From contig CAIYRH010000009.1 in NCBI GenBank assembly GCA_903928565.1, positions 1 to 46,832 on the forward strand: 46,832 nt of DNA, read 5' to 3'. The notes beneath the pieces are model-generated. The model saw only the letters and a list, made by a program, of their open reading frames with translations, did not search any database and had not been told where the DNA came from. This stretch comes from Candidatus Staskawiczbacteria bacterium (GTDB taxonomy: Bacteria; Patescibacteriota; Minisyncoccia; Minisyncoccales; Staskawiczbacteraceae). Of this stretch, positions 1 through 46,200 are shown in pieces (position 1 is the stretch's first letter; every line of letters starts with the position of its first letter). The position numbers were made by a program, and so were the translations under genes.

Positions 1-36
1 AAGTAGGTTTTTTGCCTCGAGGCAAAAAACCTACTT
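1..36. repeat. Perfect 36-bp palindrome AAGTAGG-T6-GCCTC|GAGGC-A6-CCTACTT, possibly also a terminator
   Basis: Self-complementary over 1-36 and followed by extra Ts. The central 24 bp recur at 39375-39398. Confidence 0.85.
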
Positions 37-17448: not shown

Positions 17449-17566
17449 CTTTTACTTCGTAAAAGAAACTCGAAATTCGAATATCGAAATTAGAAACATG
17501 TTTTGAATATTATATATTTTGAAAATTCTAATTTGTTTCGGATTTCGGATTTCGTACTTAGAATTT
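17449..17566. repeat. Heptamer-periodic inverted-repeat element between lemA and htpX
   Basis: CGAAATT/CGAATAT units face TTTCGGA units. Overlaps the lemA stop and ends in a CTTTTAC-TTC-GTAAAAG hairpin. Confidence 0.7.
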
Positions 17567-19464: not shown

Positions 19465-19465
19465 A

Positions 19466-19493
19466 TTGAAAATTTAAAATTGAAAATTGAAAA
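19466..19493 (-). repeat. TTTTCAA heptamer x4 right after the groEL stop
   Basis: Plus strand TTGAAAA TTTAAAA TTGAAAA TTGAAAA. Confidence 0.6.
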
Positions 19494-19498
19494 TTCGT

Positions 19499-22189: not shown

Positions 22190-25006
22190 TTATAAATACC
22201 TTCCGGTGTAACTCTTTTTAATCTTCTTGATGTCAGCTGGCGTGCCTTCACCAATAATTTGGCCGCCGCCTTCTCCACCTTCGGGGCCCAAGTCAATTAA
22301 CCAATCAGCGTTTTTAATAAGCTCTATGTTGTGCTCAATAACCAAAACCGTGTTACCCTTATCAACCAACCCACCCAAAACAGATATTAATTTTTTTATG
22401 TCATCAAAATGCAAACCGGTTGTTGGCTCGTCTAAAATGTAAAGTGTCTTGCCCGTGCCCTTGCGTGAAAGTTCGGTTGCCAATTTTACCCTTTGCGCTT
22501 CTCCTCCAGACAAACTTGTTGCCGCCTGCCCCAACTCAACATAAGACAAACCAACTTCTTTTAAAGTTTTCAATTTTTCGTAAAGGCCGGTAATATTTTT
22601 AAAAAATTCCAAAGCTTCTTCAACATTCATTTCTAAAACTTCGGCAATGTTTTTGTCTTTATAAGTAACTTCCAAAACTTCTTTGCTATATCTTTTGCCT
22701 TGGCATTCTTCGCACTCAACATAAATGTCTGGTAAAAAATACATTTCAACTTTTTTCTGGCCTTGGCCCTCACAAGCCTCGCACCGGCCACCTTTTACAT
22801 TAAAAGAAAATCTTCCGGCTGAATAACCGCGCACACGGGCCTCTTTTGTTTTAACAAAAATATCTCTAATTGCCGAAAATGCACCCGTGTATGTTGCCGG
22901 GTTGCTCCGCGGAGTCCTGCCAATTGGTGACTGGTCAACTAAAACAACTTTATTTATGTTTTCAATTCCCAAAATTTCTTTATGTTTGCCGGGCTCATCT
23001 TTGGCTCTGTAAAACTTTTTTAACAAACTTTTTGCCAAAATATCGTTCACCAAAGAAGATTTTCCCGAACCCGACGCCCCGGTTACGCAAACAAACTTTT
23101 CAAGCGGTATTTTTACGTCTATATTTTTAAGATTATGTTCTTGTGCCCCAATTATTTCTAAAAATTTGGTTAAGTCGGACTTCACCAAATTTTTCTTTGA
23201 CTTTGGACGATCTACTTTTAATTTTCCAGATAAATATTTCCCAGTTAAGCAATCTGATTTTAAAATTTCTTTATACGTGCCTTCAAAAACTACTTTTCCG
23301 CCGTGCTTTCCCGCTCCCGGCCCAATGTCTACAATCCAATCGGCGGCCTGCATTGTTTGCGGGTCGTGCTCAACCACAATAACCGTGTTGCCAAGTTCTT
23401 TTAATTTTACTAAAGTGTCAATTAATTTATGCTGGTCGCGCGCATGCAAGCCAATTGATGGTTCGTCTAAAATATATAAAACTCCCGAAAGTTTTGAGCC
23501 AATTTGTGTTGCCAATCTTATGCGTTGTTCTTCTCCTCCAGCCAATGTCCCAGCTTTTCTGGAAAGCGTTAGGTAGGACAGCCCAACATCATCTAAAAAT
23601 TGTGTCCTACTAATTATTTCTTTTAAAATTGGTTTGCTAATTTTATTTTCAGTCAAACCAGAGAAAAACTTTCCAAGCTTATCAACCGGTAAATCAACAA
23701 CCTTATCAATTGACAAGTCATTTATTGTAACTGCCAAAACTTCGGGCTTTAACCTTTTGCCTTTACACTTTGGGCAAAGTTTTATAACCATATATTGCTC
23801 AATTTCTTGCCGTGTCCAGTCGGAGTCAGTTTCGTGGTATCTTCTTTCTAAATGTGGCACAACGCCTTCAAAGCCGGGCTCGCCGTACAAAATAATATCA
23901 ATAATTTTTTGGGGTAAATCTTTAACTTCATCATCTAAAGAAAATTTGTGCTTTTGCGAAAGCTCTAAAAGTTTTGTATATAAATAACCCTGTCTTCCCA
24001 ATTTGTGCGAAGCTCGGCTCCAAGGCCAAACAGCGCCCTCAGCCAAAGTTAGCCCTTTGTTTGGAATTACCAATTCGGGGTCAACTTCCAATTTTTCACC
24101 AAGCCCGGTGCATTCTGTGCAGGCGCCATAAGGGTTGTTAAAAGAAAACAATCGGGGCTCTAACTCTGGCAAAGAAATTCCGCAGTCTTCGCAAGCAAAA
24201 TGCTCGGAGAAAACAAAATCAGAATAGTTTTGTTTTTCCCGAGCATTTTGCCCTGAGCCGTGTCGAAGGGCTTCTTTGATATTCGTGCTTACAATTACTA
24301 TTCCCTTTCCTAAATGCAGGGCAGTTTCTAAAGAATCTACTAATCTTGACCTGTCCAATTCTTTATTTAAAATTAACCTGTCAACAACCACTTCAATGTC
24401 ATGTTTTTTTTGTTTATCTAAGGGTTTGTCTAGGGTTTCTTCAACCTGAAAAATAATTCCATCAATTCTTACGCGTACAAAACCACCTCTTTGAATTTCT
24501 TCTAAAACTCCGTGGTACTCACCCTTTTTACCTCTAATTACCGGCCCCAAAATAGTAATTTCAGAAGATTTTGGTAATTTCATTACTTGGTCAACAATTT
24601 GGTCAACGGTTTGGCGTGAAATTATTTTTCCGCAATTTGGGCAATGCGGTTTTCCAATTCTTGCATACAAAAGACGCAGATAATCATAAATTTCTGTTAT
24701 TGTCCCAACAGTTGAACGTGGGTTGTGAGTAGATTTTCTTTGGTCAATTGAAATTGCCGGCGAAATTCCTTCAATTTTATCTACATCGGGCTTGTCCATT
24801 ATTCCCAAAAACTGTCTAGCGTAAGCCGACAAACTTTCAACATATCTTCTTTGCCCTTCGGCGTAAAGCGTATCAAAAGCCAAAGATGATTTTCCCGAAC
24901 CAGAAAGTCCAGTAATTACAATCAACTTATTTTTGGGCAAATCTAAATCAATATTTTTTAGATTATGCACTCTGGCTCCTCGTATTTTGATAAACTCATT
25001 TTGCAT
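22190..25006 (-). CDS. uvrA: Excinuclease ABC subunit A
   Basis: Two Walker A motifs ([18 protein letters not shown]), zinc fingers, LSGGEAQR signature. Confidence 0.98.
24251..24270 (-). repeat. In-frame CCCTTCGACACGGCTCAGGG repeat inside uvrA
   Basis: Encodes ALRHGSG. Same family as 21638 and 27745. Confidence 0.75.
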
Positions 25007-25125: not shown

Positions 25126-27120
25126 TTATTTTTTCAACAACACCTGCACTTGCGCCATTATTTGCGCCAACGCAGCAGAAATTGATGCTAAATTGCTTGG
25201 TTCAACATTTGCACTGGTCGTCGATGTTTTCGGGGCCGAGCAAGAAGCAACTTTCCCACTACGCCACATTATACACGACCACGTCCATGGGCCAGAACCG
25301 GTTACCGCCGTATTTGTTCCGACTGAACAAAGATTTATTGTTGGGGCTGTTGCAACTGCCACGCCGTTAGCCGAGCCACAAACACCATCTGCAATTGATG
25401 ACTCATGCGCGCTGCAATCGGCTGTTGTTCCGCCGTTTGCACCCTTACACGACCACCACCAACCTCCTCCCACACCTGCATAAATAACATGAGACACGGC
25501 ACCAGCTTCGCCAGACAAACAAAGTTCGGTTGTTGGGGCTGTTGTGGTATAAGTTCCATTTGAAAAACCGCAACGGCCATTTATTCCCAAGGTCACAAGA
25601 TTTCCAGTAGCTGTTGAAATTCCGGCTGTTTTAGATGGAACTGTTCCACCGGGCACATTCACGGAAGGCGTTTTGTAATTTTCTAGGCCAGCTGTTTGGC
25701 GCGTTGTTGTGCCGTTAATTGTGTAATCAATTTCGCTAATTTTGAAATAAACAAAACCCGAGCCTCCTCTGTAAGTTGCGCTAACGGTTGCTGTTGCAGT
25801 TGAGCCGTCTGGAATATTGCCAACTGGCGAAGTGCTAACATTTACACTACTTACGGGCAATACTGTGCAACTGCCGTTAACGTTGCAAAACTGCACAATC
25901 ACATTACTTGAATTCAATGCTGAAATTATTCCTCCGTGAGCTGTAATTTTGTAAGTAATTACACCAGTTTCATAGCTAAGAGCTGGGTTTGAAACATTTG
26001 GGGTATAGGTTACATTGGCAGTAAGCATTGTTAAACTTGCTGAAGGCTGAGCTGGCGGAACGCCGGTAATCATAGCCGAACAAGAAGCAGTTGTTCCACC
26101 ATTAGAACCAACACATGTCCACGTTCCTGGGCCCGAGCCCAAAATGGTAACAGGCGTTGAAGTTCCAGCTGCGCAAAGGTTTGCGTCGGGTGGAAGCACC
26201 GTGTAAGTCATTCCATTTGCTGTACCGCAAGCACCATTTACTAAAGCAACTCCACCGGGCACATTCACGGAAGGCGTTTTGTAATTTTCTAAGCCGGTAG
26301 TTTGACGAGTTGTTGTACCACCAATTGTATAGTCAATTTCACTAATTTTAAAATAAACAAATCCCGAGCCTCCTCTGTAAGTTGCGCTAACTGTTACTGT
26401 TGCGGTTGAGCCGTCATAAATGCTTCCTGTTGGCGAAGTGCTAACATTTACATTGCTTGCGGGCAAAACTGTGCAAGTGCCGTTAACATTGCAAAATTGC
26501 ACAACAACGTTATTGGAATTCAACGGTGAAATTATTCCTCCGTGAGCTGTAATTTTGTAAGTAATTATACCGGTTTCATAGCTAAGTGCTGGGTTTGAAA
26601 CATTGGGAGTATAGGCAACGTTACTAAAAACATATGCAAGTGTTGCATAACCTTGGTTTTGCGCAACCATTGTAAAATTATTATCGCTTATGTCTTGAAA
26701 TAAAACTCCCTTAACTGTTGCATTTACATTAAACCTGTAATTATTGCCCACAACAGCACCGTTGGGTGCAAAAGCCATAGTTTGTATAGTGGCATTGGTT
26801 ACAACGCCATTTTGAGAAGCCATATAACCACCTCCTGTTGTGCTCAAGTCAACTTCGTATGGAGTGCCCACTGGTAAAGTGGTTGTAAAAGAGACTGTAA
26901 TTGGTTGCCCAATGGCAAATGTTTCTCCACCGTTTGGCGAAACAATAGTAATAGTTGGCATACCTTGGGCATTCTGAAGAGCATTTAATTGAGCCGCCAA
27001 AGAGGCTATTAGGGCCTGCAAATCTGATAGTTGGTCAGCATTTGTTATGGCCGGCATAGCCACGGAAAACAAAATTGCTGTTGCCAAAACAGCTACCACT
27101 ACGAGAGATTTAATTTTCAT
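25126..27120 (-). CDS. Secreted multidomain surface protein (664 aa)
   Basis: Signal peptide, LQALIASLAAQL coiled coil, PTITIVSPNGGE Ig-like start, duplicated 121-aa domain, three NG.CG..NG...LC..G...W.W.C repeats. Confidence 0.88.
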   Translation of the reverse strand: MKIKSLVVVAVLATAILFSVAMPAITNADQLSDLQALIASLAAQLNALQNAQGMPTITIVSPNGGETFAIGQPITVSFTTTLPVGTPYEVDLSTTGGGYMASQNGVVTNATIQTMAFAPNGAVVGNNYRFNVNATVKGVLFQDISDNNFTMVAQNQGYATLAYVFSNVAYTPNVSNPALSYETGIITYKITAHGGIISPLNSNNVVVQFCNVNGTCTVLPASNVNVSTSPTGSIYDGSTATVTVSATYRGGSGFVYFKISEIDYTIGGTTTRQTTGLENYKTPSVNVPGGVALVNGACGTANGMTYTVLPPDANLCAAGTSTPVTILGSGPGTWTCVGSNGGTTASCSAMITGVPPAQPSASLTMLTANVTYTPNVSNPALSYETGVITYKITAHGGIISALNSSNVIVQFCNVNGSCTVLPVSSVNVSTSPVGNIPDGSTATATVSATYRGGSGFVYFKISEIDYTINGTTTRQTAGLENYKTPSVNVPGGTVPSKTAGISTATGNLVTLGINGRCGFSNGTYTTTAPTTELCLSGEAGAVSHVIYAGVGGGWWWSCKGANGGTTADCSAHESSIADGVCGSANGVAVATAPTINLCSVGTNTAVTGSGPWTWSCIMWRSGKVASCSAPKTSTTSANVEPSNLASISAALAQIMAQVQVLLKK
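25646..26615 (-). repeat. Internal 364-bp direct duplication (25646-26009 and 26252-26615)
   Basis: No indels. About 46 mismatches (about 87% identity) by hand count. Confidence 0.9.
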
Positions 27121-27151
27121 ATTTAAAATTAAATTAAATTAATATTATATA

Positions 27152-27179
27152 ATCATACGCCTACTGGAAATCGTGTCAA
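27152..27179 (-). promoter_or_regulatory. sigma70 promoter of the surface-protein gene
   Basis: TTGACA-16-TATGAT. Confidence 0.65.
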
Positions 27180-27199
27180 GTTTGTTGTAATATATTTTT

Positions 27200-28516
27200 A
27201 TGGAAGGATTTAAATTTATTGCAAAAGAAAAGTTAAGCAACCTCCCCACAACTAGTGGAGTTTATTGTTTTAAGGAAAATTCTAGCACCATTTATATCGG
27301 CAAGGCTATAAACATCAAAAGCAGGGTTAAAAACCACTTCCAGCAACCAAGCTACAGAGACAATTTGTTTATGGACAAGGTAAATAAAATTGGCTACTTA
27401 GAAACCAACTCCGAAATTGAAGCCTTAATTTTAGAAGCTAATTTAATTAAAAAACACCAACCCAAATTTAATGTGGTCTGGAAAGATGACAAAAATTATT
27501 TTTACGTAGCAATTGTTCAAAATAAAGATAAAATCCCCTATGTTTATATTACTCACCAACTACTCACTACCAACTACAAACTACCAACTAAATATATTGG
27601 GCCTTTTGTTGAGGGCACGGCTTTGAAAAAGACTTTAAAATTTCTAAGGCGGGCGTTTCCCTATTACACTTCGGCGAGGCATCCAAAAACCAAATGCACT
27701 TGGTGCCACTTAGGTTTATGTCCCGGTCCTGAATTATTTGAAAACCCTTCGACTTCGCTCAGGGCGTCGAGCAAGCTCTCCGAATACAAAAAGAATATCA
27801 AAAAATTAATCTTAATTCTTGAAGGAAAACGAAACATGGCTTTAAATTTGCTTAAGCGTGAAATGGCACAACTGGCAAAAGCAAACAAATTTGAAGAGGC
27901 CGGCAAAGTCCGTGACAGAATTTTTAATTTACAACAAATAATGTCCCACAAAGGAGTAATCAGTGACGAAAAAAACATGTCCGCGTTTTTCGCGGCCGCG
28001 AAAAACGCGGACAACTCCCCTCTGACCGAAATTCGGAATGCTCGCAGGGTTGAATGTTACGACATTTCCAACATACAGGGAAAATTTGCAACCGGCTCCA
28101 TGGTTGTTTTTGTTAACGGCTCAGCTGACAAAAGCCAATACAAAAAATTCAAAATAAAAATGAAAAACGAACCCAATGACATTGCCATGTTAAAAGAGGT
28201 TTTAACAAGAAGGTTTAACCACCCCGAATGGACTTACCCCCAAGTAATTCTAATAGACGGCGGGAAAGCCCAACTCAACATTGCCATAAGAGTTAAAAAT
28301 GAACTACAAACTACCAACTACAAACTACAAACTATTAAAATTATTTCAATTGCAAAGGGCAGGCAAGAATTATTTATTGAAGGCGAAGCCAAACCAATTC
28401 CGCTAAAATTGCTTCCTCGCGAAATTTACAACTTGGTTTTACAGCTAGACGCCGAGGCCCACCGCTTTGCCATTACCTATCACAAAAAACTGCGCAAAAA
28501 ATCTTTACTGCAATAA
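27200..28516 (+). CDS. uvrC: UvrC-family excinuclease (GIY-YIG + UVR + RNase H-like, no HhH2)
   Basis: GVYCF..YIGKA, EALILEANLIK, ECYDISN, LIDGGKAQL, ends at EAHRFAITYHKKLR. Confidence 0.9.
   Translation: MEGFKFIAKEKLSNLPTTSGVYCFKENSSTIYIGKAINIKSRVKNHFQQPSYRDNLFMDKVNKIGYLETNSEIEALILEANLIKKHQPKFNVVWKDDKNYFYVAIVQNKDKIPYVYITHQLLTTNYKLPTKYIGPFVEGTALKKTLKFLRRAFPYYTSARHPKTKCTWCHLGLCPGPELFENPSTSLRASSKLSEYKKNIKKLILILEGKRNMALNLLKREMAQLAKANKFEEAGKVRDRIFNLQQIMSHKGVISDEKNMSAFFAAAKNADNSPLTEIRNARRVECYDISNIQGKFATGSMVVFVNGSADKSQYKKFKIKMKNEPNDIAMLKEVLTRRFNHPEWTYPQVILIDGGKAQLNIAIRVKNELQTTNYKLQTIKIISIAKGRQELFIEGEAKPIPLKLLPREIYNLVLQLDAEAHRFAITYHKKLRKKSLLQ
27559..27590 (+). repeat. ACTAC(AA/CA/TC) heptamer array in-frame in uvrC
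   Basis: ACTACTC ACTACCA ACTACAA ACTACCA ACTA, encoding LLTTNYKLPT. Confidence 0.8.
27745..27764 (+). repeat. In-frame CCCTTCGACTTCGCTCAGGG repeat inside uvrC
   Basis: Encodes PSTSLRA. Confidence 0.8.
27978..28013. repeat. Perfect 36-bp palindrome in-frame in uvrC
   Basis: TGTCCGCGTTTTTCGCGG|CCGCGAAAAACGCGGACA. Both strands read MSAFFAAAKNAD. Confidence 0.9.
28303..28334 (+). repeat. Second heptamer array in-frame in uvrC
   Basis: ACTACAA ACTACCA ACTACAA ACTACAA ACTA, encoding LQTTNYKLQT. Confidence 0.8.
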
Positions 28517-28574
28517 TTATTGATATTTACCAGTATTTGTGTTAACATACTTGAAAGTAAACTTAATTCAAAAA

Positions 28575-28793
28575 ATGAACCAAATTTTATTCTACGCACA
28601 AATTATAACCTCAATAGCATTAATCATACTTATTGTAATTCAGCAACGAGGCGCAGCCCTGGGTGCAGGCTTTGGTGGCGGTGGCGAAATTTATTCCACC
28701 AAGCGTGGAGCACAAAAAAAGATTTACTACGCAACAGTCGCCGTAGTGACCATTTTCCTTGTTTTAGGCGTATTAAATATATTAATACCTTAG
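28575..28793 (+). CDS. secG: Preprotein translocase subunit SecG
   Basis: LIVIQQRGAALGAGFGGG, TKRGAQK, two TM segments. Start at ATG 28575. Confidence 0.9.
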   Translation: MNQILFYAQIITSIALIILIVIQQRGAALGAGFGGGGEIYSTKRGAQKKIYYATVAVVTIFLVLGVLNILIP

Positions 28794-28809
28794 TCTTATA
28801 AATAACGTA

Positions 28810-33862: not shown

Positions 33863-34840
33863 ATGAGAATATTTTCGGGAATAAGGCCAACCGGAGGCCT
33901 ACACATAGGAAATTATTTAGGAGCCATAAAGCAATGGATTGCTTTGCAAGAAACCAACGAATGCATTTTTTGCATTGTTGATTTGCATGCAATTACAACG
34001 CCATACGACCCCAAAGAACTCCAAAAAAATATTTTAGAAGCCACCGCAATTTATTTGGCGGCTGGCATAGACCCCGAAAAATCTGTAATTTTTGTGCAGT
34101 CCGAAGTTAAAGAACACGCCGAATTAGCTTGGCTTTTAGAAACCATTACCCCCATGGGCGAACTTTCTCGCATGACCCAATTTAAAGAAAAATCTAAGCA
34201 ATTTAAAGATTACGTAAACGCGGGATTATTTAATTACCCGGTTTTAATGGCCGGCGACATTCTTTTGTACCGCGCAAAAGCCGTGCCGGTTGGCAAAGAC
34301 CAAGAACAACATGTTGAATTGGCCCGCACAATTGCCAGAAAATTTAACCAAAAATTTGGGCAAATTTTCCCCGAACCAGAAACTATTTTACCAAAAACCG
34401 GCGCCAAAATAATGAGCTTAACCGACCCTAAGAAAAAAATGTCAAAAACCGACGACCCAAAAAGTTGTATTTCACTTTTTGACTCGCCAGAAGCCATTAC
34501 TAAAAAAATAATGAGTGCCGCCACAGATTCCGGTAAAGATGTAATTTATAACGTTACCAAAAAACCTGGCATTTCTAACCTTTTAACTATTTACCATGTG
34601 CTTACCGACATGCCAATTCCCGAAATTGAAAAACAATTTAAGGGCAAAGGTTATGGAGACTTTAAAAAATCGTTAGCAAAAGTTGTTGTTGACTACTTAG
34701 AACCATTTCGCAGAAAACAAAAAGAATTACAAACTAGAGACGTTTATGTAAAAGACATTTTGGCAAAAGGCGCCGCTCGCGCCCGAATTATTGCCGAAAC
34801 CACAATGGCCGAAGTCCGCTCCAAAATGGGACTAACTTAG
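33863..34840 (+). CDS. trpS: Tryptophanyl-tRNA synthetase
   Basis: SGIRPTGGLHIGNY, YPVLMAGDI, VPVGKDQEQH, KKMSKT. Start at MRIFSG. Confidence 0.96.
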   Translation: MRIFSGIRPTGGLHIGNYLGAIKQWIALQETNECIFCIVDLHAITTPYDPKELQKNILEATAIYLAAGIDPEKSVIFVQSEVKEHAELAWLLETITPMGELSRMTQFKEKSKQFKDYVNAGLFNYPVLMAGDILLYRAKAVPVGKDQEQHVELARTIARKFNQKFGQIFPEPETILPKTGAKIMSLTDPKKKMSKTDDPKSCISLFDSPEAITKKIMSAATDSGKDVIYNVTKKPGISNLLTIYHVLTDMPIPEIEKQFKGKGYGDFKKSLAKVVVDYLEPFRRKQKELQTRDVYVKDILAKGAARARIIAETTMAEVRSKMGLT

Positions 34841-34870
34841 TTTGTAGTTTGTAGTGAGTAGTTTGTAGTA
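34838..34870 (+). repeat. TAGT(TTG/GAG) heptamer array starting at the trpS stop
   Basis: TAGTTTG TAGTTTG TAGTGAG TAGTTTG TAGTA. Confidence 0.85.
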
Positions 34871-43249: not shown

Positions 43250-46200
43250 CTCTTTCTCTTTTATTCTTGGAATGAATCCTGTTCCCACCGGAATAAGTTT
43301 TCCGATAATTACGTTTTCTTTTAATCCACGCAATTTATCTTCTTTTCCTTCAAGCGAAGCTTTAATTAAAACTCTTGAAGTTTGCTGGAAAGAAGCAGCT
43401 GACAAGAACGATTCCGAATTTAAAGCAACTTCGGAAATTCCAAGCAACATTTGCACCCCAATTGGAGGAGTCTTTTTTGCAGCTTTTAGCATGTCCACTT
43501 CTTCATTGAAAATTTCTCTTTCAATCACCTCGCCTCTTATCCATTGCGAATCGCCCTCTTCTTTAACTCTTATTCTAGAGAACATTTTTTGAATAATTAT
43601 CTCAACGTGTTTATCGTTAATATCCACTCCCTGAGAGGAATAAATTTTTTGAACTTCTTGTAAAATATATCTTTGAGTTGCTTCAACTCCAGCAGATTTG
43701 TAAAGTTTCTTTAAGTCCAAACTTCCATCGCAAAGAGGTTGATTTTCTTTAACCTCTTGCCCCTTCTCAACCAAAATTGCAATTCTTCCAGGAATTTTAT
43801 ATTCCATTATGTCTTTTTTGGCACCTGTTTTCTTAGCAGACTGAATTTTAACAATTCTGCTTTCTTCGTTAACTTCAATAACTTTTCCTTCCACTAAAGA
43901 CATTATAGCCTCTCCTTTTGGAGCACGGCATTCAAAAATTTCTTCAATTCTTGGCAAACCACTAGTAATATCTCCTGCTCCCACAATACCTCCCAAGTGG
44001 TGCGTTCTAAGTGTTAACTGAGTACCAGGTTCTCCAATGGCCTGAGCGGCAACAATTCCCACCGCTTCGCCGGCTTTAACCGTGGTGTTTCTTCCCATAT
44101 CCCAGCCATAACATTTCTGGCAACATTTTTGCGAAGATTTACAAGTTAATGGTGAAGCAACAACAACGCGTTCAATTCCCTTTTCTTCTGCAATTGCCTT
44201 GGCTGCCTGCCAATTAATAACTTCATTTTTCTTAACAAAAGTCATTTTAGCGTGCTCAACTGTTTCAAGGGCGGTTCGGCCAACTATTTTGAAAACAAAA
44301 TCTTGCTCAATGGCGTCGGCGTCTTTTCTGTAAATGGTTAAACCAGTTTTGTCTCCGCAATCTGCTTCTGCAATAATTACATCATGAGCCACGTCAACCA
44401 ATCTTCTAGTTAAATATCCCGCCGATGATGTTCTTAATGCGGAGTCTGCTGTACCCTTTCTGGCTCCGTGAGTTGAAATAAAGTATTCCAAAACATTAAA
44501 ACCTTCTGTAAAAGATGATTTAACCGGAAGCTCAATAATGTCTCCTGAAGGGTTGTTCACCAAACCCTTCATACCGGCCATTTGAACTGGTTGCGCCCAA
44601 GTAGCTCTAGCTCCAGCGGTAATAATAGACATAACTGGGCCATCTTTTGGCAAAGTTGTTTTTAATAAAGCCTCTAATTTTGATTTGACTGTTTGCCAAA
44701 TCAAAATTTTCTGCGAAGTTTTTTCGTCGGCAGACAAAAGACCTTTTTCAAAATGAGTATCAATTTTTCTAATTTCTCCCTCGGCTGCATCAACTAAACC
44801 TTTCTTTTCTTTTGGAACAATTAAGTCATCCATGCCCCAGCTAACTCCAGACAAAGTGCAGTATTCAAAGCCCAACATTTTAATTTTATCAATAATAACA
44901 ACGGCATCTTCGTTGGGATATTTTTCAATAATTTCTCTAACAATTCCTTTTAATACTTTGTTGTCTATTAATTTATTTATGTATGGGTAGTCGTCGGGCA
45001 AAACTGCATTTAAAATTAATCTTCCAACAGTTGTTTCAAGTAATTCGTGCTTTCCTTCTGGGTGTTTTGGATGAGGAACCATAATCACATCATTTTGGCC
45101 CAAAAATTTATACTCAAAAGCCGTTGTTGCTTCAGAAGAGCTTGAATACACCTTTATGCTTTTTGGATCTGTTCGGTCTTGCGTGTTGCTTAATTTTGTT
45201 AAATAATAGCAACCCAAAGCAATATCTCTAAACGGCCCCATAATTGGCATACCGGTTGCTGGCCTTAATAAGTTTAGGGTTGAAAGCATAATTTCTCGGG
45301 CTTCCTTTTGAGCTTCGTCAGACAATGGCAAATAAACAGCCATTTGGTCACCGTCGAAGTCAGCGTTAAAAGCTTCACAAACCAATGGGTGCAATTTAAT
45401 TGTTTCTCCTTCAGTTAAAATGGGCCTGAAAGCTTGAATACCAAGCCTGTGCAAAGTTGGAGCTCTGTTTAACAATACCAACTTATCTTTAATTATTTCT
45501 TCCAAAATTGCCCAAACTTCGGGAGTTTTTTCTTCAACCAAACGGGCTGCTCCCCTAATGTTGTAAGCTAGTTCTTTATCTAAAATTCTTTTAATTACAA
45601 ACGGTTTAAAAATTTCCAAAGCCAAGGTTTTTGGCAAACCGCATTGCGAAAACTTTAGTTCGGGCACTACTGAAATAACAGATCTTCCAGAATAATCAAC
45701 ACGTTTTCCCAAAAGGTTTTGCCTAAACCTTCCTTGCTTTCCTGCCAACATTGCGGCCAAAGATTTTAATAATCTTTTTCCTCCGGTTGTGGCGGTTGTT
45801 GTAACGCCCTTTCTCATTTCGTTGTCTATTAAGGCGTCAACAGCTTCCTGTAACATTCTTTTTTCATTACGCACAATAACCGGCGGAGCTTTTATTTCCT
45901 GCAAATACTTTAACCTGTTATTTCTGTTTATAACTCTTCTATATAAATCGTTTAAATCAGACGAAGCATAACGGCCACCGTCTAATTGTACCATTGGCCT
46001 TAAGTCTGGTGGTAAAACCGGCAAAACATCCATAAACATCCATTCTGGTCTTACACCGGCTCGCAACATTCCTTGAAAAAGTTTTAACCTTCGCAAAACT
46101 TTTTTCTTCATTGCTGGAGGTGCTTCTTGTGCCTCTAATTTAATTTTTTCTGTTTCTTTTTCTAAATCAATGTGTGAAAATATTTCTTTTACAACTTCTG

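What the first reader, a model, noticed from the sequence alone, without database searches (positions are those of the whole stretch)
27200..28516. uvrC carries four separate in-frame repeat insertions
Seen: a heptamer array at 27559-27590 (LLTTNYKLPT), a 20-nt hairpin repeat at 27745-27764 (PSTSLRA), a perfect 36-bp palindrome at 27978-28013, and a heptamer array at 28303-28334 (LQTTNYKLQT). All preserve the frame. The heptamer and 20-nt families also occur intergenically in this window, so they are DNA elements being translated rather than protein motifs. Precedent: Rickettsia palindromic elements inserted in-frame in conserved proteins. Four in a single 1.3-kb repair gene is a striking density.
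Basis: partly seen in the sequence, partly recalled or inferred. Interest (0 to 1): 0.7.

Follow-up and report, generated by a model that had tools for sequence, protein, structure and literature searches.

The report
Repeat DNA translated inside a uvrC gene
A DNA-repair gene (uvrC) of a tiny-genome candidate-phyla-radiation (CPR) bacterium is read straight through four short pieces of repeat DNA that also litter the rest of the genome, which shows how small repeat elements can live inside essential-type genes without breaking them.

Summary
All four tracts are real and in frame in an intact 438-aa uvrC (GIY-YIG, UVR and RNase H-like domains; catalytic residues conserved).

They belong to three dispersed DNA families:
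- ACTACAA-type heptamer arrays: 37 in this 718-kb genome.
- A CCTTCGACTTCGCTCAGG motif: 18 copies, translated at least four different ways in other genes.
- A 36-bp perfect palindrome of a shared 8+5+10+5+8 design.

Each tract lies at an indel hot spot between structural elements of UvrC. uvrC is the most repeat-laden of 537 long ORFs.

The simple "four insertions" picture needs correcting. Only sites 2 and 4 are longer than the typical orthologue. Sites 1 and 3 are hypervariable linkers that other species fill with other repeats.

Arrays survive in ORFs only in sense orientation (13 of 13), because the antisense strand has TAG in every frame. The full form of the heptamer element is an inverted pair of arrays, once around a 23S-IVS-protein (PF05635) gene.

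Five species carry different, each perfect, 35-44-bp palindromes at the same uvrC site. In one species the uvrC palindrome is 38/40 identical to the palindromes flanking a PaaX-like gene.

The outcome resembles Rickettsia palindromic elements, but these tracts are not members of that family. I found no published description.

The parts
27200..28516 (+). uvrC coding sequence, 438 aa: GIY-YIG, UVR and RNase H-like endonuclease domains, with no C-terminal (HhH)2 domain
   Evidence: ORF. Pfam. PDB UvrC matches. 24 orthologues with invariant Y22, Y32, G34, R42, E79, N91, D288, D353 and H421.
27559..27593 (+). Site 1: sense-oriented ACTACAA-family heptamer array (5 units, ending ACTAAAT), translated as LLTTNYKLPTK (residues 121-131)
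   Evidence: It lies in a loop between strands E113-118 and E131-136, with pLDDT below 50 at residues 123-127. The linker is 6-21 aa long among orthologues.
27731..27781 (+). Site 2: a 17-codon tract (ELFENPSTSLRASSKLS); G000 is 12 residues longer here than most orthologues. It contains the dispersed 19-mer CCTTCGACTTCGCTCAGGG at 27746-27764.
   Evidence: The P177-N199 segment is 21 aa here against a median of 9. pLDDT is 61-67.
27978..28013 (.). Site 3: perfect 36-bp palindrome TGTCCGCG-TTTTT-CGCGGCCGCG-AAAAA-CGCGGACA, translated as (M)SAFFAAAKNAD in the UVR-to-RNase H linker
   Evidence: The linker at residues 253-271 has pLDDT below 50. G003 is exactly 12 codons shorter over the L244-E285 segment (DNA alignment). 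The sibling copy is at C5:6753-6788.
28303..28337 (+). Site 4: sense-oriented ACTACAA-family heptamer array (5 units), translated as ELQTTNYKLQTI (residues 368-379)
   Evidence: It lies between helix 356-369 and strand 380-385. The query has 6 extra residues here relative to T. maritima UvrC 2nrt. It is 4.5 aa longer than the orthologue median and 9 aa longer than the shortest.
34835..34869 (-). Heptamer array of the same family. Read antisense by the class I (Trp/Tyr) tRNA synthetase gene, it supplies that gene's stop codon and abuts a terminator hairpin.
37713..37754 (-). Intergenic heptamer array of the same family, directly after a terminator-like hairpin, 33 nt downstream of the stop of the 353-aa ORF 37787-38848 (recA-like by its sequence; not checked against Pfam)
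43218..43252 (+). Heptamer array of the same family. Read antisense by rpoC, it contains the rpoC stop codon.
24250..24269 (-). Diverged copy (3 mismatches) of the 20-nt motif, inside uvrA
1..36 (.). 36-bp perfect palindrome of the same 36-bp design (7+6+10+6+7: AAGTAGG-TTTTTT-GCCTCGAGGC-AAAAAA-CCTACTT) at the contig start. The identical palindrome starts contig C5. A shortened copy lies at 39374-39399 inside a 186-aa ORF.

Best explanation
uvrC of this 718-kb Patescibacteria/CPR genome is an intact gene, apparently under purifying selection, whose loops and inter-domain linkers are indel hot spots. Four of these hot spots are currently occupied by members of three dispersed families of short structured DNA. 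The tracts are transcribed and translated passively as loop or linker residues.

(1) Heptamer arrays. The two arrays are solo, sense-oriented copies of the ACTAC[AC/CA/TC] family.
- The complete form of the element is an inverted pair of 4-5-unit arrays. The pair sits either exactly between two cistrons or around a PF05635 (23S rRNA intervening-sequence protein) gene, like an IVS (23S rRNA intervening sequence) stem.
- The antisense strand carries TAG in all three frames. The sense strand has no stop and no G, and gives the same 7-aa repeat (TTNYKLQ) in every frame.
- Selection therefore leaves sense copies inside genes and antisense copies only at gene ends.

(2) The 19-mer CCTTCGACTTCGCTCAGG(G/A) is a genus-wide motif with a conserved loop and a variable stem. 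It lands in ORFs in either orientation.

(3) The 36-bp palindrome belongs to a family of 36-42-bp perfect palindromes that flank PaaX-like (winged-helix plus Cas2-fold) genes. It is probably a site bound by such a protein.

Once a hot spot is occupied, the tract turns over in place. Array units are homogenised, so the unit can differ between species while length is kept. Palindrome arms change as mirror pairs.

Shown: the family memberships, the positions in the protein, the orientation filter, the variability among orthologues, and the links to PF05635 arms and PaaX flanks.
Inferred: how the tracts move or are written, protein binding, RNase III processing of paired arms, and that the tracts are neutral for UvrC function.
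For: Gene integrity:
- Pfam domains.
- 24 orthologues with invariant catalytic residues.

Loops and linkers:
- AlphaFold model and pLDDT.
- A 6-residue gap in T. maritima UvrC opposite site 4.

Hot spots:
- Segment lengths across 24 orthologues: site 1, 6-21 aa; site 2, 9-24; site 3, 27-51; site 4, 15-39. At least four further variable sites exist.

DNA-level families:
- 37 arrays, 34 of them with 4-5 units, sharing end units such as ACTAAAT.
- 13/13 in-ORF arrays are in sense orientation. 11 arrays contain the stop codon of an ORF that reads them antisense. 7 arrays end 0-8 nt before a start codon.
- The 19-mer has 18 copies, 11 of them in long ORFs, read in four orientation/frame combinations. 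It is found in 18 of 41 related genomes.
- uvrC is the top gene for repeat tracts among 537 long ORFs; 502 have none.

PF05635 link:
- The gene at C7:47376-47690 is flanked by inverted ACTACAA arms. Two other PF05635 genes have arms made of other heptamers.
- In G010 a weak, sub-threshold PF05635 fragment lies between ACTAC arrays.
- The published Coxiella IVS carrying S23p (the PF05635 protein) has tandem heptamers and a stem cut by RNase III (PMC4990558).

Palindrome:
- Five species have different perfect palindromes with 17-21-nt arms at the same uvrC site, against a maximum of 10 in shuffles.
- The G000 sibling copy at C5:6753 differs by two mirrored pairs.
- Identical palindromes flank two PaaX_M genes in G000, and an identical, only partly palindromic 27-mer flanks the third.
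- In G016 the uvrC palindrome is 38/40 identical to those flanking a PaaX-like gene. The two differences form one mirrored pair.

Turnover in place:
- tsaD: CTACAAA x4 in G000 against CTAAACC x4 in G005, same 33 nt, while other species are 15-18 nt shorter.
- uvrB: equal length everywhere, with AACTACA x4 in G000, AAATTCA x4 in G022, and degenerate sequence elsewhere.

Real sequence, not artefact:
- Contigs from four metagenomes match across all junctions.
Against: - No insertion event was caught with clean empty and filled sites plus target duplications, so mobility is inferred.
- Sites 1 and 3 are not longer than the median orthologue.
- The uvrC arrays have no partner arm, so they cannot form the IVS-like stem.
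- In G000 none of the three PaaX-like genes is flanked by the same sequence as the uvrC palindrome. Only the 36-bp design is shared.
- G005 has two PF05635 genes but no ACTAC arrays. G003 has one ACTAC array, in uvrC, but no PF05635 gene. The protein link is therefore not one-to-one.
- There is no transcript or protein evidence.
- The read data are low-depth contigs that would hide rare length variants.
Confidence: 0.72

Rival explanations
1. Purely local origin. The arrays and palindromes are not dispersed elements. They are generated and kept perfect in place, by replication slippage and by hairpin template-switching (quasi-palindrome correction), in linkers under weak protein constraint.
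For: - Orthologous arrays keep their length but differ in unit between species.
- Five different perfect palindromes occupy the same uvrC site, and changes occur as mirrored pairs.
- The conserved ITHQ codons ATTACTCACCAA next to site 1 resemble array units. G003 has AAACTGCC at site 4, which could be a seed for an array or a remnant of one.
Against: - The same 19-mer is found at 18 loci here and in 18 of 41 relatives.
- Arrays share end units and a narrow size of 4-5 units in 34 of 37 cases.
- The ACTAC unit is amplified in a few unrelated genera of the class, while the reversed control pattern is almost absent.
- The G016 uvrC palindrome is 38/40 identical to copies at other loci.
- Local processes explain maintenance better than origin.
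Confidence: 0.17
2. The repeats are selected protein motifs, for example beta-hairpin modules YKLxxxxYKL, that serve UvrC and the other host proteins.
For: - The units of different heptamer families encode similar patterns of an aromatic residue, any residue, then an aliphatic residue (NYKLQTT, PYTLNPK, KFEIRNS).
- The uvrB site has a conserved xYKLxxxxYxL pattern of fixed length.
Against: - The same DNA occurs in non-coding positions and as inverted pairs.
- The nucleotide repeats are perfect even at synonymous positions.
- The 19-mer is read in four frame/orientation combinations.
- Most orthologues lack the motifs.
- Three of the four uvrC sites have low to moderate model confidence (site 1, pLDDT below 50; site 2, 61-67; site 3, below 50), whereas site 4 is about 83.
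Confidence: 0.04
3. The heptamer arrays are phase-variation switches: gain or loss of one 7-nt unit would shift the frame and turn uvrC off or on.
For: - The unit length is not a multiple of three.
- The Coxiella IVS heptamers vary in copy number between strains (PMC4990558).
Against: - The units are imperfect within each uvrC array.
- Host genes are housekeeping genes (ligA, tsaD, gatA, eno, murC, pth and others, by my reading of the translations; only uvrC was checked against Pfam).
- All 13 in-ORF arrays are in frame.
- Array length is conserved between species.
- No length variants appear in four metagenomes, although contigs hide rare variants.
Confidence: 0.03
4. Assembly or binning artefact: repeats were wrongly joined into the gene.
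For: - Logan contigs break at the arrays and at the palindrome.
- Two contigs of this assembly start with the same palindrome.
Against: - Every junction is spanned by independent contigs with zero mismatches.
- The reading frame is preserved.
- Orthologues in many other assemblies carry the same kinds of tract at the same sites.
Confidence: 0.01

Closest known systems
Rickettsia palindromic elements (RPE; Ogata et al. 2000, as summarised in PMC10969869)
   Same: Short repeat DNA sits in frame in unrelated housekeeping genes of a reduced genome. It is translated and tolerated at positions compatible with the protein fold.
   Different: - RPEs are about 100-150 bp, form ten sequence families with conserved peptides, and are restricted to Rickettsia.
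- The tracts here are 19-36 nt, and two of the three families are not palindromes.
- The heptamer arrays give the same peptide in every frame.
- The sites are recurrent hot spots with turnover in place.
Cyanobacterial STRR (short tandemly repeated repetitive) heptanucleotide repeats and the small dispersed repeats nested in them (Mazel 1990; Elhai 2008; from my own knowledge, not retrieved here)
   Same: Short tandem arrays of a 7-nt unit are dispersed through a genome, with several unit types per genome and GC-rich mini-hairpins associated with them.
   Different: - Different phylum and different units.
- A third of the arrays here lie in frame inside conserved genes.
- The antisense strand encodes stops in all frames.
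- The arrays pair up as inverted arms.
23S rRNA intervening sequences with an S23p/PF05635 ORF (Coxiella burnetii IVS, PMC4990558)
   Same: A PF05635 gene is bordered by complementary arms, with tandem heptamers next to the ORF. This genome has one such gene with ACTACAA arms.
   Different: - The cassettes here sit between protein genes, not in 23S rRNA.
- The uvrC copies are single arms without a partner and without an ORF.
- RNase III cleavage was not tested.
REP/BIME (repetitive extragenic palindrome / bacterial interspersed mosaic) elements and other hairpin repeats mobilised by RAYT (REP-associated tyrosine transposase) or IS200/IS605-type enzymes
   Same: Dispersed short stem-loops with a conserved core and a covarying stem, like the 19-mer family.
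   Different: - Those elements are extragenic by definition.
- No RAYT-type gene was looked for or found here.
- Eleven of the 18 copies here are inside long ORFs.
PaaX-type repressors with palindromic operators
   Same: Perfect palindromes flank genes carrying the PaaX central Cas2-like domain. A near-identical palindrome sits in uvrC of one species.
   Different: - These proteins are short (178-208 aa), match Pfam only in the PaaX_M domain, and are each bracketed on both sides by the same site.
- Copies of the site lie inside coding DNA.
- Binding has not been shown.

Membership tests
UvrC (excinuclease ABC subunit C) | N-terminal GIY-YIG nuclease domain with catalytic Tyr, Arg, Glu and Asn | tested here: met
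   PF01541 at residues 20-91. Y22, Y32, G34, R42, E79 and N91 are invariant in 24 orthologues. The protein matches PDB 1yd6 and 1ycz.
UvrC (excinuclease ABC subunit C) | UVR motif and RNase H-like endonuclease domain with the DDH triad | tested here: met
   PF02151 at residues 215-246 and PF08459 at residues 280-425. D288, D353 and H421 are invariant. The protein matches PDB 2nrt and 3c65.
UvrC (excinuclease ABC subunit C) | C-terminal (HhH)2 DNA-binding domain | tested here: not met
   The protein ends at residue 438, right after the RNase H-like domain. Nearly all orthologues of the order are 420-473 aa (one open frame is 512 aa). This is a naturally short UvrC.
Rickettsia palindromic elements | An element of about 100-150 bp with palindromic potential and a family-specific peptide | tested here: not met
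   The tracts are 19-36 nt. Only site 3 is palindromic. Sizes were compared with PMC10969869.
Rickettsia palindromic elements | In-frame presence in unrelated conserved genes at structurally permissive positions | tested here: met
MITE (miniature inverted-repeat transposable element) | Terminal inverted repeats plus target-site duplication | tested here: inconclusive
   No duplication is evident at the uvrC, tsaD or uvrB sites in alignments of filled against shorter orthologues. The sites are too diverged for a clean empty-site comparison.
IVS-like PF05635 cassette (inverted heptamer arms) | Two inverted arrays of the same heptamer forming a stem, with or without the PF05635 ORF | tested here: not met
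   This feature is met elsewhere in the genome by 7 ORF-less pairs and one ORF-bearing cassette. The two uvrC arrays are both in sense orientation, 744 nt apart, with no inverted partner, so they are solo arms at most.
Phase-variable simple-sequence contingency locus | A near-perfect repeat tract with copy-number polymorphism that switches the frame | tested here: not met
   The units are imperfect. No length variant appears in 4 metagenomes (weak test). Length is conserved between species at tsaD and uvrB.
PaaX-associated palindrome family | The same palindrome flanks a gene with a PaaX_M domain | tested here: inconclusive
   Met for the uvrC palindrome of G016, 38/40 identical. In G000 the uvrC palindrome shares only the 36-bp design with the copies flanking the C2 PaaX-like gene.
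Known RNA families (Rfam 15) | A match at gathering score | tested here: not met
   The only hit is a spurious sub-threshold miRNA match on the palindrome: 22 bits against a gathering score of 245.

The most novel reading that the evidence does not exclude
The tracts are not junk. They are the cis-sites of two protein-partnered systems that have colonised the coding DNA of CPR housekeeping genes.

- PF05635 four-helix-bundle proteins would work with unit-specific heptamer arms.
- Small PaaX-like (winged-helix plus Cas2-fold) proteins would work with 36-44-bp palindromes.
- The palindrome inside uvrC would be kept perfect because the species' PaaX-like protein binds it. Binding could, for example, act as a transcription roadblock or a structural site inside a repair gene.
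- Site and protein would co-evolve, which would explain five different perfect palindromes at one codon position.
- The heptamer units would be rewritten genome by genome by the cassette's own machinery.
Probability: 0.22. Interest if true: 0.85.

Novelty: new variant of a known kind. Interest (0 to 1): 0.6.

Why it matters
CPR/Patescibacteria have the smallest free-standing bacterial genomes. Yet a conserved repair gene here carries four pieces of repeat DNA in its reading frame, and at least ten other housekeeping genes carry one or two.

- This explains part of the protein length variation seen between CPR species.
- It warns annotators and structure predictors that some "low-complexity loops" are DNA elements.
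- It extends the Rickettsia RPE phenomenon to a second, unrelated reduced-genome lineage, with much smaller elements.

Two observations are testable leads towards function for sequences that have had none.
1. Heptamer arrays have a stop-free, structure-free sense strand and an all-frame-stop antisense strand, and they pair as arms around an IVS-protein gene.
2. Perfect palindromes are kept at one codon position of uvrC across species and match those flanking PaaX-like genes.

Tried and rejected
- Rfam scan of 27000-28800: only a spurious sub-threshold miRNA hit on the palindrome.
- The 116-aa antisense ORF 27664-28014, which starts in the palindrome, has no Pfam match and is taken as a by-product of palindrome symmetry.
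- A stable hairpin for the 20-nt element was rejected (z = 0.06).
- Idea that each genome has one dominant heptamer unit that converts all arrays: rejected. The CCCTA-type unit of G005 occurs in only one array (two overlapping pattern hits), at the tsaD site.
- Idea that the small genes next to arrays are IVS-protein genes: those checked read as a ksgA C-terminal piece, a DksA-type zinc finger, NusB and L15 by my inspection of the translations. Only C7:47376-47690 is PF05635 with ACTACAA arms.
- Read-level search for array length variants: only low-depth contigs were available and no variants were seen, so it was uninformative for rare variants.
- Literature searches for heptanucleotide, in-frame or palindromic repeats in CPR/Patescibacteria, and for PaaX/Cas2-like palindromes, found no description.
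- Python access to loci of other genomes was not available, so orthologue DNA was read through the alignment tools.
Full report
**What is there**

The window is contig C9 of a 718-kb, 18-contig, roughly 37% GC genome of the small-genome CPR/Patescibacteria type. The ORF 27200..28516 (+) encodes 438 aa with GIY-YIG, UVR and UvrC RNase H-like domains. It matches solved UvrC domains. It lacks the C-terminal (HhH)2 domain, as do its orthologues across the order.

- Heptamer arrays at 27559-27593 and 28303-28337.
- The core CCTTCGACTTCGCTCAGGG at 27746-27764.
- A perfect 36-bp palindrome at 27978-28013.

Contigs assembled independently from four lake metagenomes match across every junction without a mismatch. 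Those contigs tend to break at the repeats, as expected for multi-copy sequence.

**Where the tracts lie in the protein**

I aligned 24 orthologues from the same genus and order. In that alignment the catalytic residues of both nuclease domains are invariant. The gene is a mosaic of conserved blocks and about eight indel hot spots. An AlphaFold model built on this alignment places the four tracts as follows:
- Site 1: a loop between two strands (residues 121-131, pLDDT below 50 at 123-127).
- Site 2: directly after the CPGP motif (residues 178-194, pLDDT 61-67).
- Site 3: the disordered linker between the UVR and RNase H-like domains (pLDDT below 50 at 253-271).
- Site 4: the connection between helix 356-369 and strand 380-385. 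T. maritima UvrC has a 6-residue gap opposite this tract.

Segment lengths across orthologues qualify the word "insertion":

| Site | G000 | Median | Minimum |
|---|---|---|---|
| 1 | 11 | 11 | 6 |
| 2 | 21 | 9 | 9 |
| 3 | 40 | 40 | 27 |
| 4 | 24 | 19.5 | 15 |

- G000 exceeds the typical orthologue only at sites 2 and 4.
- At site 3 the close relative G003 is exactly 12 codons, or 36 nt, shorter over the same segment (DNA alignment).
- Sites 1 and 3 are long-lived variable linkers. Other species fill them with other repeats: other heptamer types (KLEIRNSKF, HPKPYTLNP) and GC-rich tracts (FGSAQGKP, AKASEGQA).

**These are DNA elements, not protein motifs**

- The ACTAC-type heptamer word is the most frequent non-trivial word in the genome. 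There are 37 arrays, and 34 of them have 4 or 5 units. They share end units such as TCTAC... at the start and ...ACTAAAT at the end.
- Thirteen arrays lie inside long ORFs, all in sense orientation. By my reading of the translations, the hosts are ligA, tsaD (two arrays), gatA, uvrB, uvrC (two), pth, eno, ppsA, murC, mnmA and a 1770-aa gene. Of these, only uvrC was checked against Pfam.
- The reverse complement, TTGTAGT, gives TAG in all three frames. The sense strand has no stop and no G, and folds to about 0 kcal/mol. It yields the same heptapeptide cycle, TTNYKLQ, in every frame.
- Eleven arrays contain the stop codon of an ORF that reads them antisense. In this window these ORFs include rpoC and a class I tRNA synthetase gene. 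Seven arrays end 0-8 nt before a start codon.
- The 19-mer has 18 copies, 11 of them in long ORFs. They are read as PSTSLRA, PFDSAQG, LSEVEG/ALSKAEG or DPERSRR, depending on orientation and frame. Its 12-nt loop is conserved while its 4-6-bp stem covaries (TCCT/AGGA, CCCT/AGGG, TCCC/GGGA).
- The 19-mer is present in 18 of 41 related genomes. One copy lies in the uvrC of G003 at a different site, site 1.
- With a strict detector, 502 of 537 long ORFs have no such tract. uvrC ranks first with three, and has four when its less perfect first array is counted.

**What the heptamer arrays belong to**

- Seven pairs of arrays form inverted repeats with an AT-rich spacer of about 15 nt. Each pair fills the gap between two cistrons exactly: the upstream gene's stop codon lies in the antisense arm, and the next gene's start follows the sense arm.
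- One PF05635 (23S rRNA intervening-sequence protein) gene, at C7:47376-47690, is bracketed by inverted ACTACAA arms. Two other PF05635 genes have arms made of other heptamers, AGAAATT and GAAATTC. The GAAATTC unit also occurs in frame in mnmA.
- In G010, a weak, sub-threshold PF05635 fragment lies between ACTAC arrays.
- The published Coxiella IVS, which carries the same protein family, has tandem heptamers next to the ORF and a terminal stem cut by RNase III (PMC4990558).
- The uvrC arrays are therefore best read as solo sense arms of this element family. They have no partner arm and cannot form the stem.
- The family is amplified in G000 (42 pattern hits). It is moderate in G010 (14 hits) and absent from the closest relative, G005. 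G003 has it only in uvrC.
- Across 301 genomes of the class it occurs in 43 genomes from 40 genera. It is strongly amplified in a handful of unrelated genera, while the reversed control pattern is nearly absent.

**Turnover in place**

- At tsaD site a, G000 has CTACAAA x4, G005 has CTAAACC x4, and G003 has a degenerate version. All three occupy the same 33 nt, and other species are 15-18 nt shorter.
- At the uvrB site every orthologue has the same length. G000 and G029 have AACTACA units, G022 has AAATTCA units, and the rest are degenerate.
- A genome from a different family, G029, has ACTA-type arrays at both uvrC sites 1 and 4.
- A one-off insertion followed by decay does not fit these patterns. 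Arrays at fixed sites appear to be homogenised or rewritten.
- A simple rule of one unit per genome was rejected, because the CCCTA unit of G005 is confined to that single array.

**The palindrome**

- At the same position of uvrC, five species carry different perfect palindromes with arms of 17-21 nt: G000, G016, G013, G021 and G006. Shuffled sequences reach arms of 10 nt at most. G005 has a decayed palindrome, and G003 and G020 have none.
- The G000 copy has an intergenic sibling at C5:6753-6788. The two differ at two mirrored pairs of positions.
- Its 8+5+10+5+8 design is shared by the 36-bp palindromes that flank, on both sides, a gene with a PaaX central Cas2-like domain at C2:51771-52397. 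A second PaaX-like gene is bracketed by its own pair of identical palindromes. A third is bracketed by an identical 27-mer that is only partly palindromic.
- In G016 the uvrC palindrome core occurs ten times. Two of these copies flank a PaaX-like gene. The uvrC copy is 38/40 identical to a flanking copy, and the two differences form one mirrored pair.
- This makes protein recognition the leading idea for why the symmetry is kept. Hairpin-templated correction could produce the same pattern. In G000 no PaaX-like gene carries the uvrC sequence itself.

**Comparison with known systems**

- The outcome is that of Rickettsia palindromic elements: in-frame repeat DNA in housekeeping genes of a reduced genome (PMC10969869). 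Size, sequence and structure all fail the membership test.
- The arrays resemble cyanobacterial STRR heptamers (from my own knowledge) and the arms of IVS elements.
- Five literature searches found no description of these tracts in CPR bacteria.
- Earlier notes from this scan report the same kinds of tract in many other Patescibacteria windows. I used two of them as leads and re-tested them here.

**Verdict**

- The reading "translated DNA elements" is supported.
- "Four RPE-like insertions" is only partly right.
- Mechanisms of spread, protein binding and any effect on UvrC remain inferred.

Noticed in passing
G000 contigs C2:49098-49175, C3:22141-22220, C3:24028-24110, C6:2301-2392, C10:97804-97873, C12:6386-6472, C16:7166-7242: Seven inverted pairs of ACTACAA arrays with an AT-rich spacer of about 15 nt fill intercistronic gaps. 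At five of them the upstream gene's stop codon lies in the antisense arm. At four or five the next gene's start follows the sense arm within 0-8 nt; the proteins that follow begin like DnaJ and ribosomal protein S13, among others. They look like IVS-type stems placed between cistrons.
   Followed up: partly
G000 C7:41150-42520 and C7:47180-47860: Three PF05635 (23S rRNA IVS protein) genes each have inverted arms made of a different heptamer: AGAAATT-type, GAAATTC-type and ACTACAA-type. The same units occur as solo arrays elsewhere in the genome.
   Followed up: partly
G000 C2:51665-52438, C13:13381-14034, C18:4470-5110; G016 locus L050:840-1530: Each small PaaX_M-domain gene (178-208 aa) is bracketed on both sides by the same sequence: a 36-42-bp perfect palindrome at the C2, C13 and G016 genes, and an identical 27-mer that is only partly palindromic at the C18 gene. 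Different paralogues have different sequences.
   Followed up: partly
window 1-36 and G000 C5:1-36: Two contigs of the assembly begin with the identical 36-bp palindrome AAGTAGGTTTTTTGCCTCGAGGCAAAAAACCTACTT. This suggests an unassembled short cassette between two copies.
   Followed up: no
window 27650-27735 (UvrC residues about 155-178): Orthologues of four other families have four cysteines (RSC...PC...C.GPC), the pattern I recall for the UvrC [4Fe-4S] ligands. This genus and most other orthologues in the alignment have C-x2-C-H-x3-C and no cysteine after CPGP. The site 2 tract sits exactly where the fourth cysteine would be.
   Followed up: no
window 22190-25006 (-): uvrA lies 2 kb from uvrC, separated from it by an unrelated 664-aa repeat protein. 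It contains a diverged copy of the 20-nt motif at 24250-24269. uvrB (C7:11414-13363) carries a perfect ACTACAA x4 array. All three excinuclease genes therefore hold such tracts.
   Followed up: partly
G000 C18:33551-33640 (mnmA): Two heptamer arrays of different units (TCGAAAT/GAAATTC, then ACTACAA) lie a few bases apart in frame, read as EIRNSKFEIRNKSKNKKLQTTNYKLQT.
   Followed up: no
window 17465-17496, 17536-17554, 19465-19495: Tandem Repeats Finder reports further period-7 arrays of other units (GAAATTC, TTTCGGA, ATTGAAA) in the window. Their context was not examined.
   Followed up: no
window 27566-27584 and 28310-28328: The two uvrC arrays share an identical 19-mer, ACTACCAACTACAAACTAC, in the same codon phase, 744 nt (248 codons) apart. 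Recombination between them would give an in-frame deletion.
   Followed up: no
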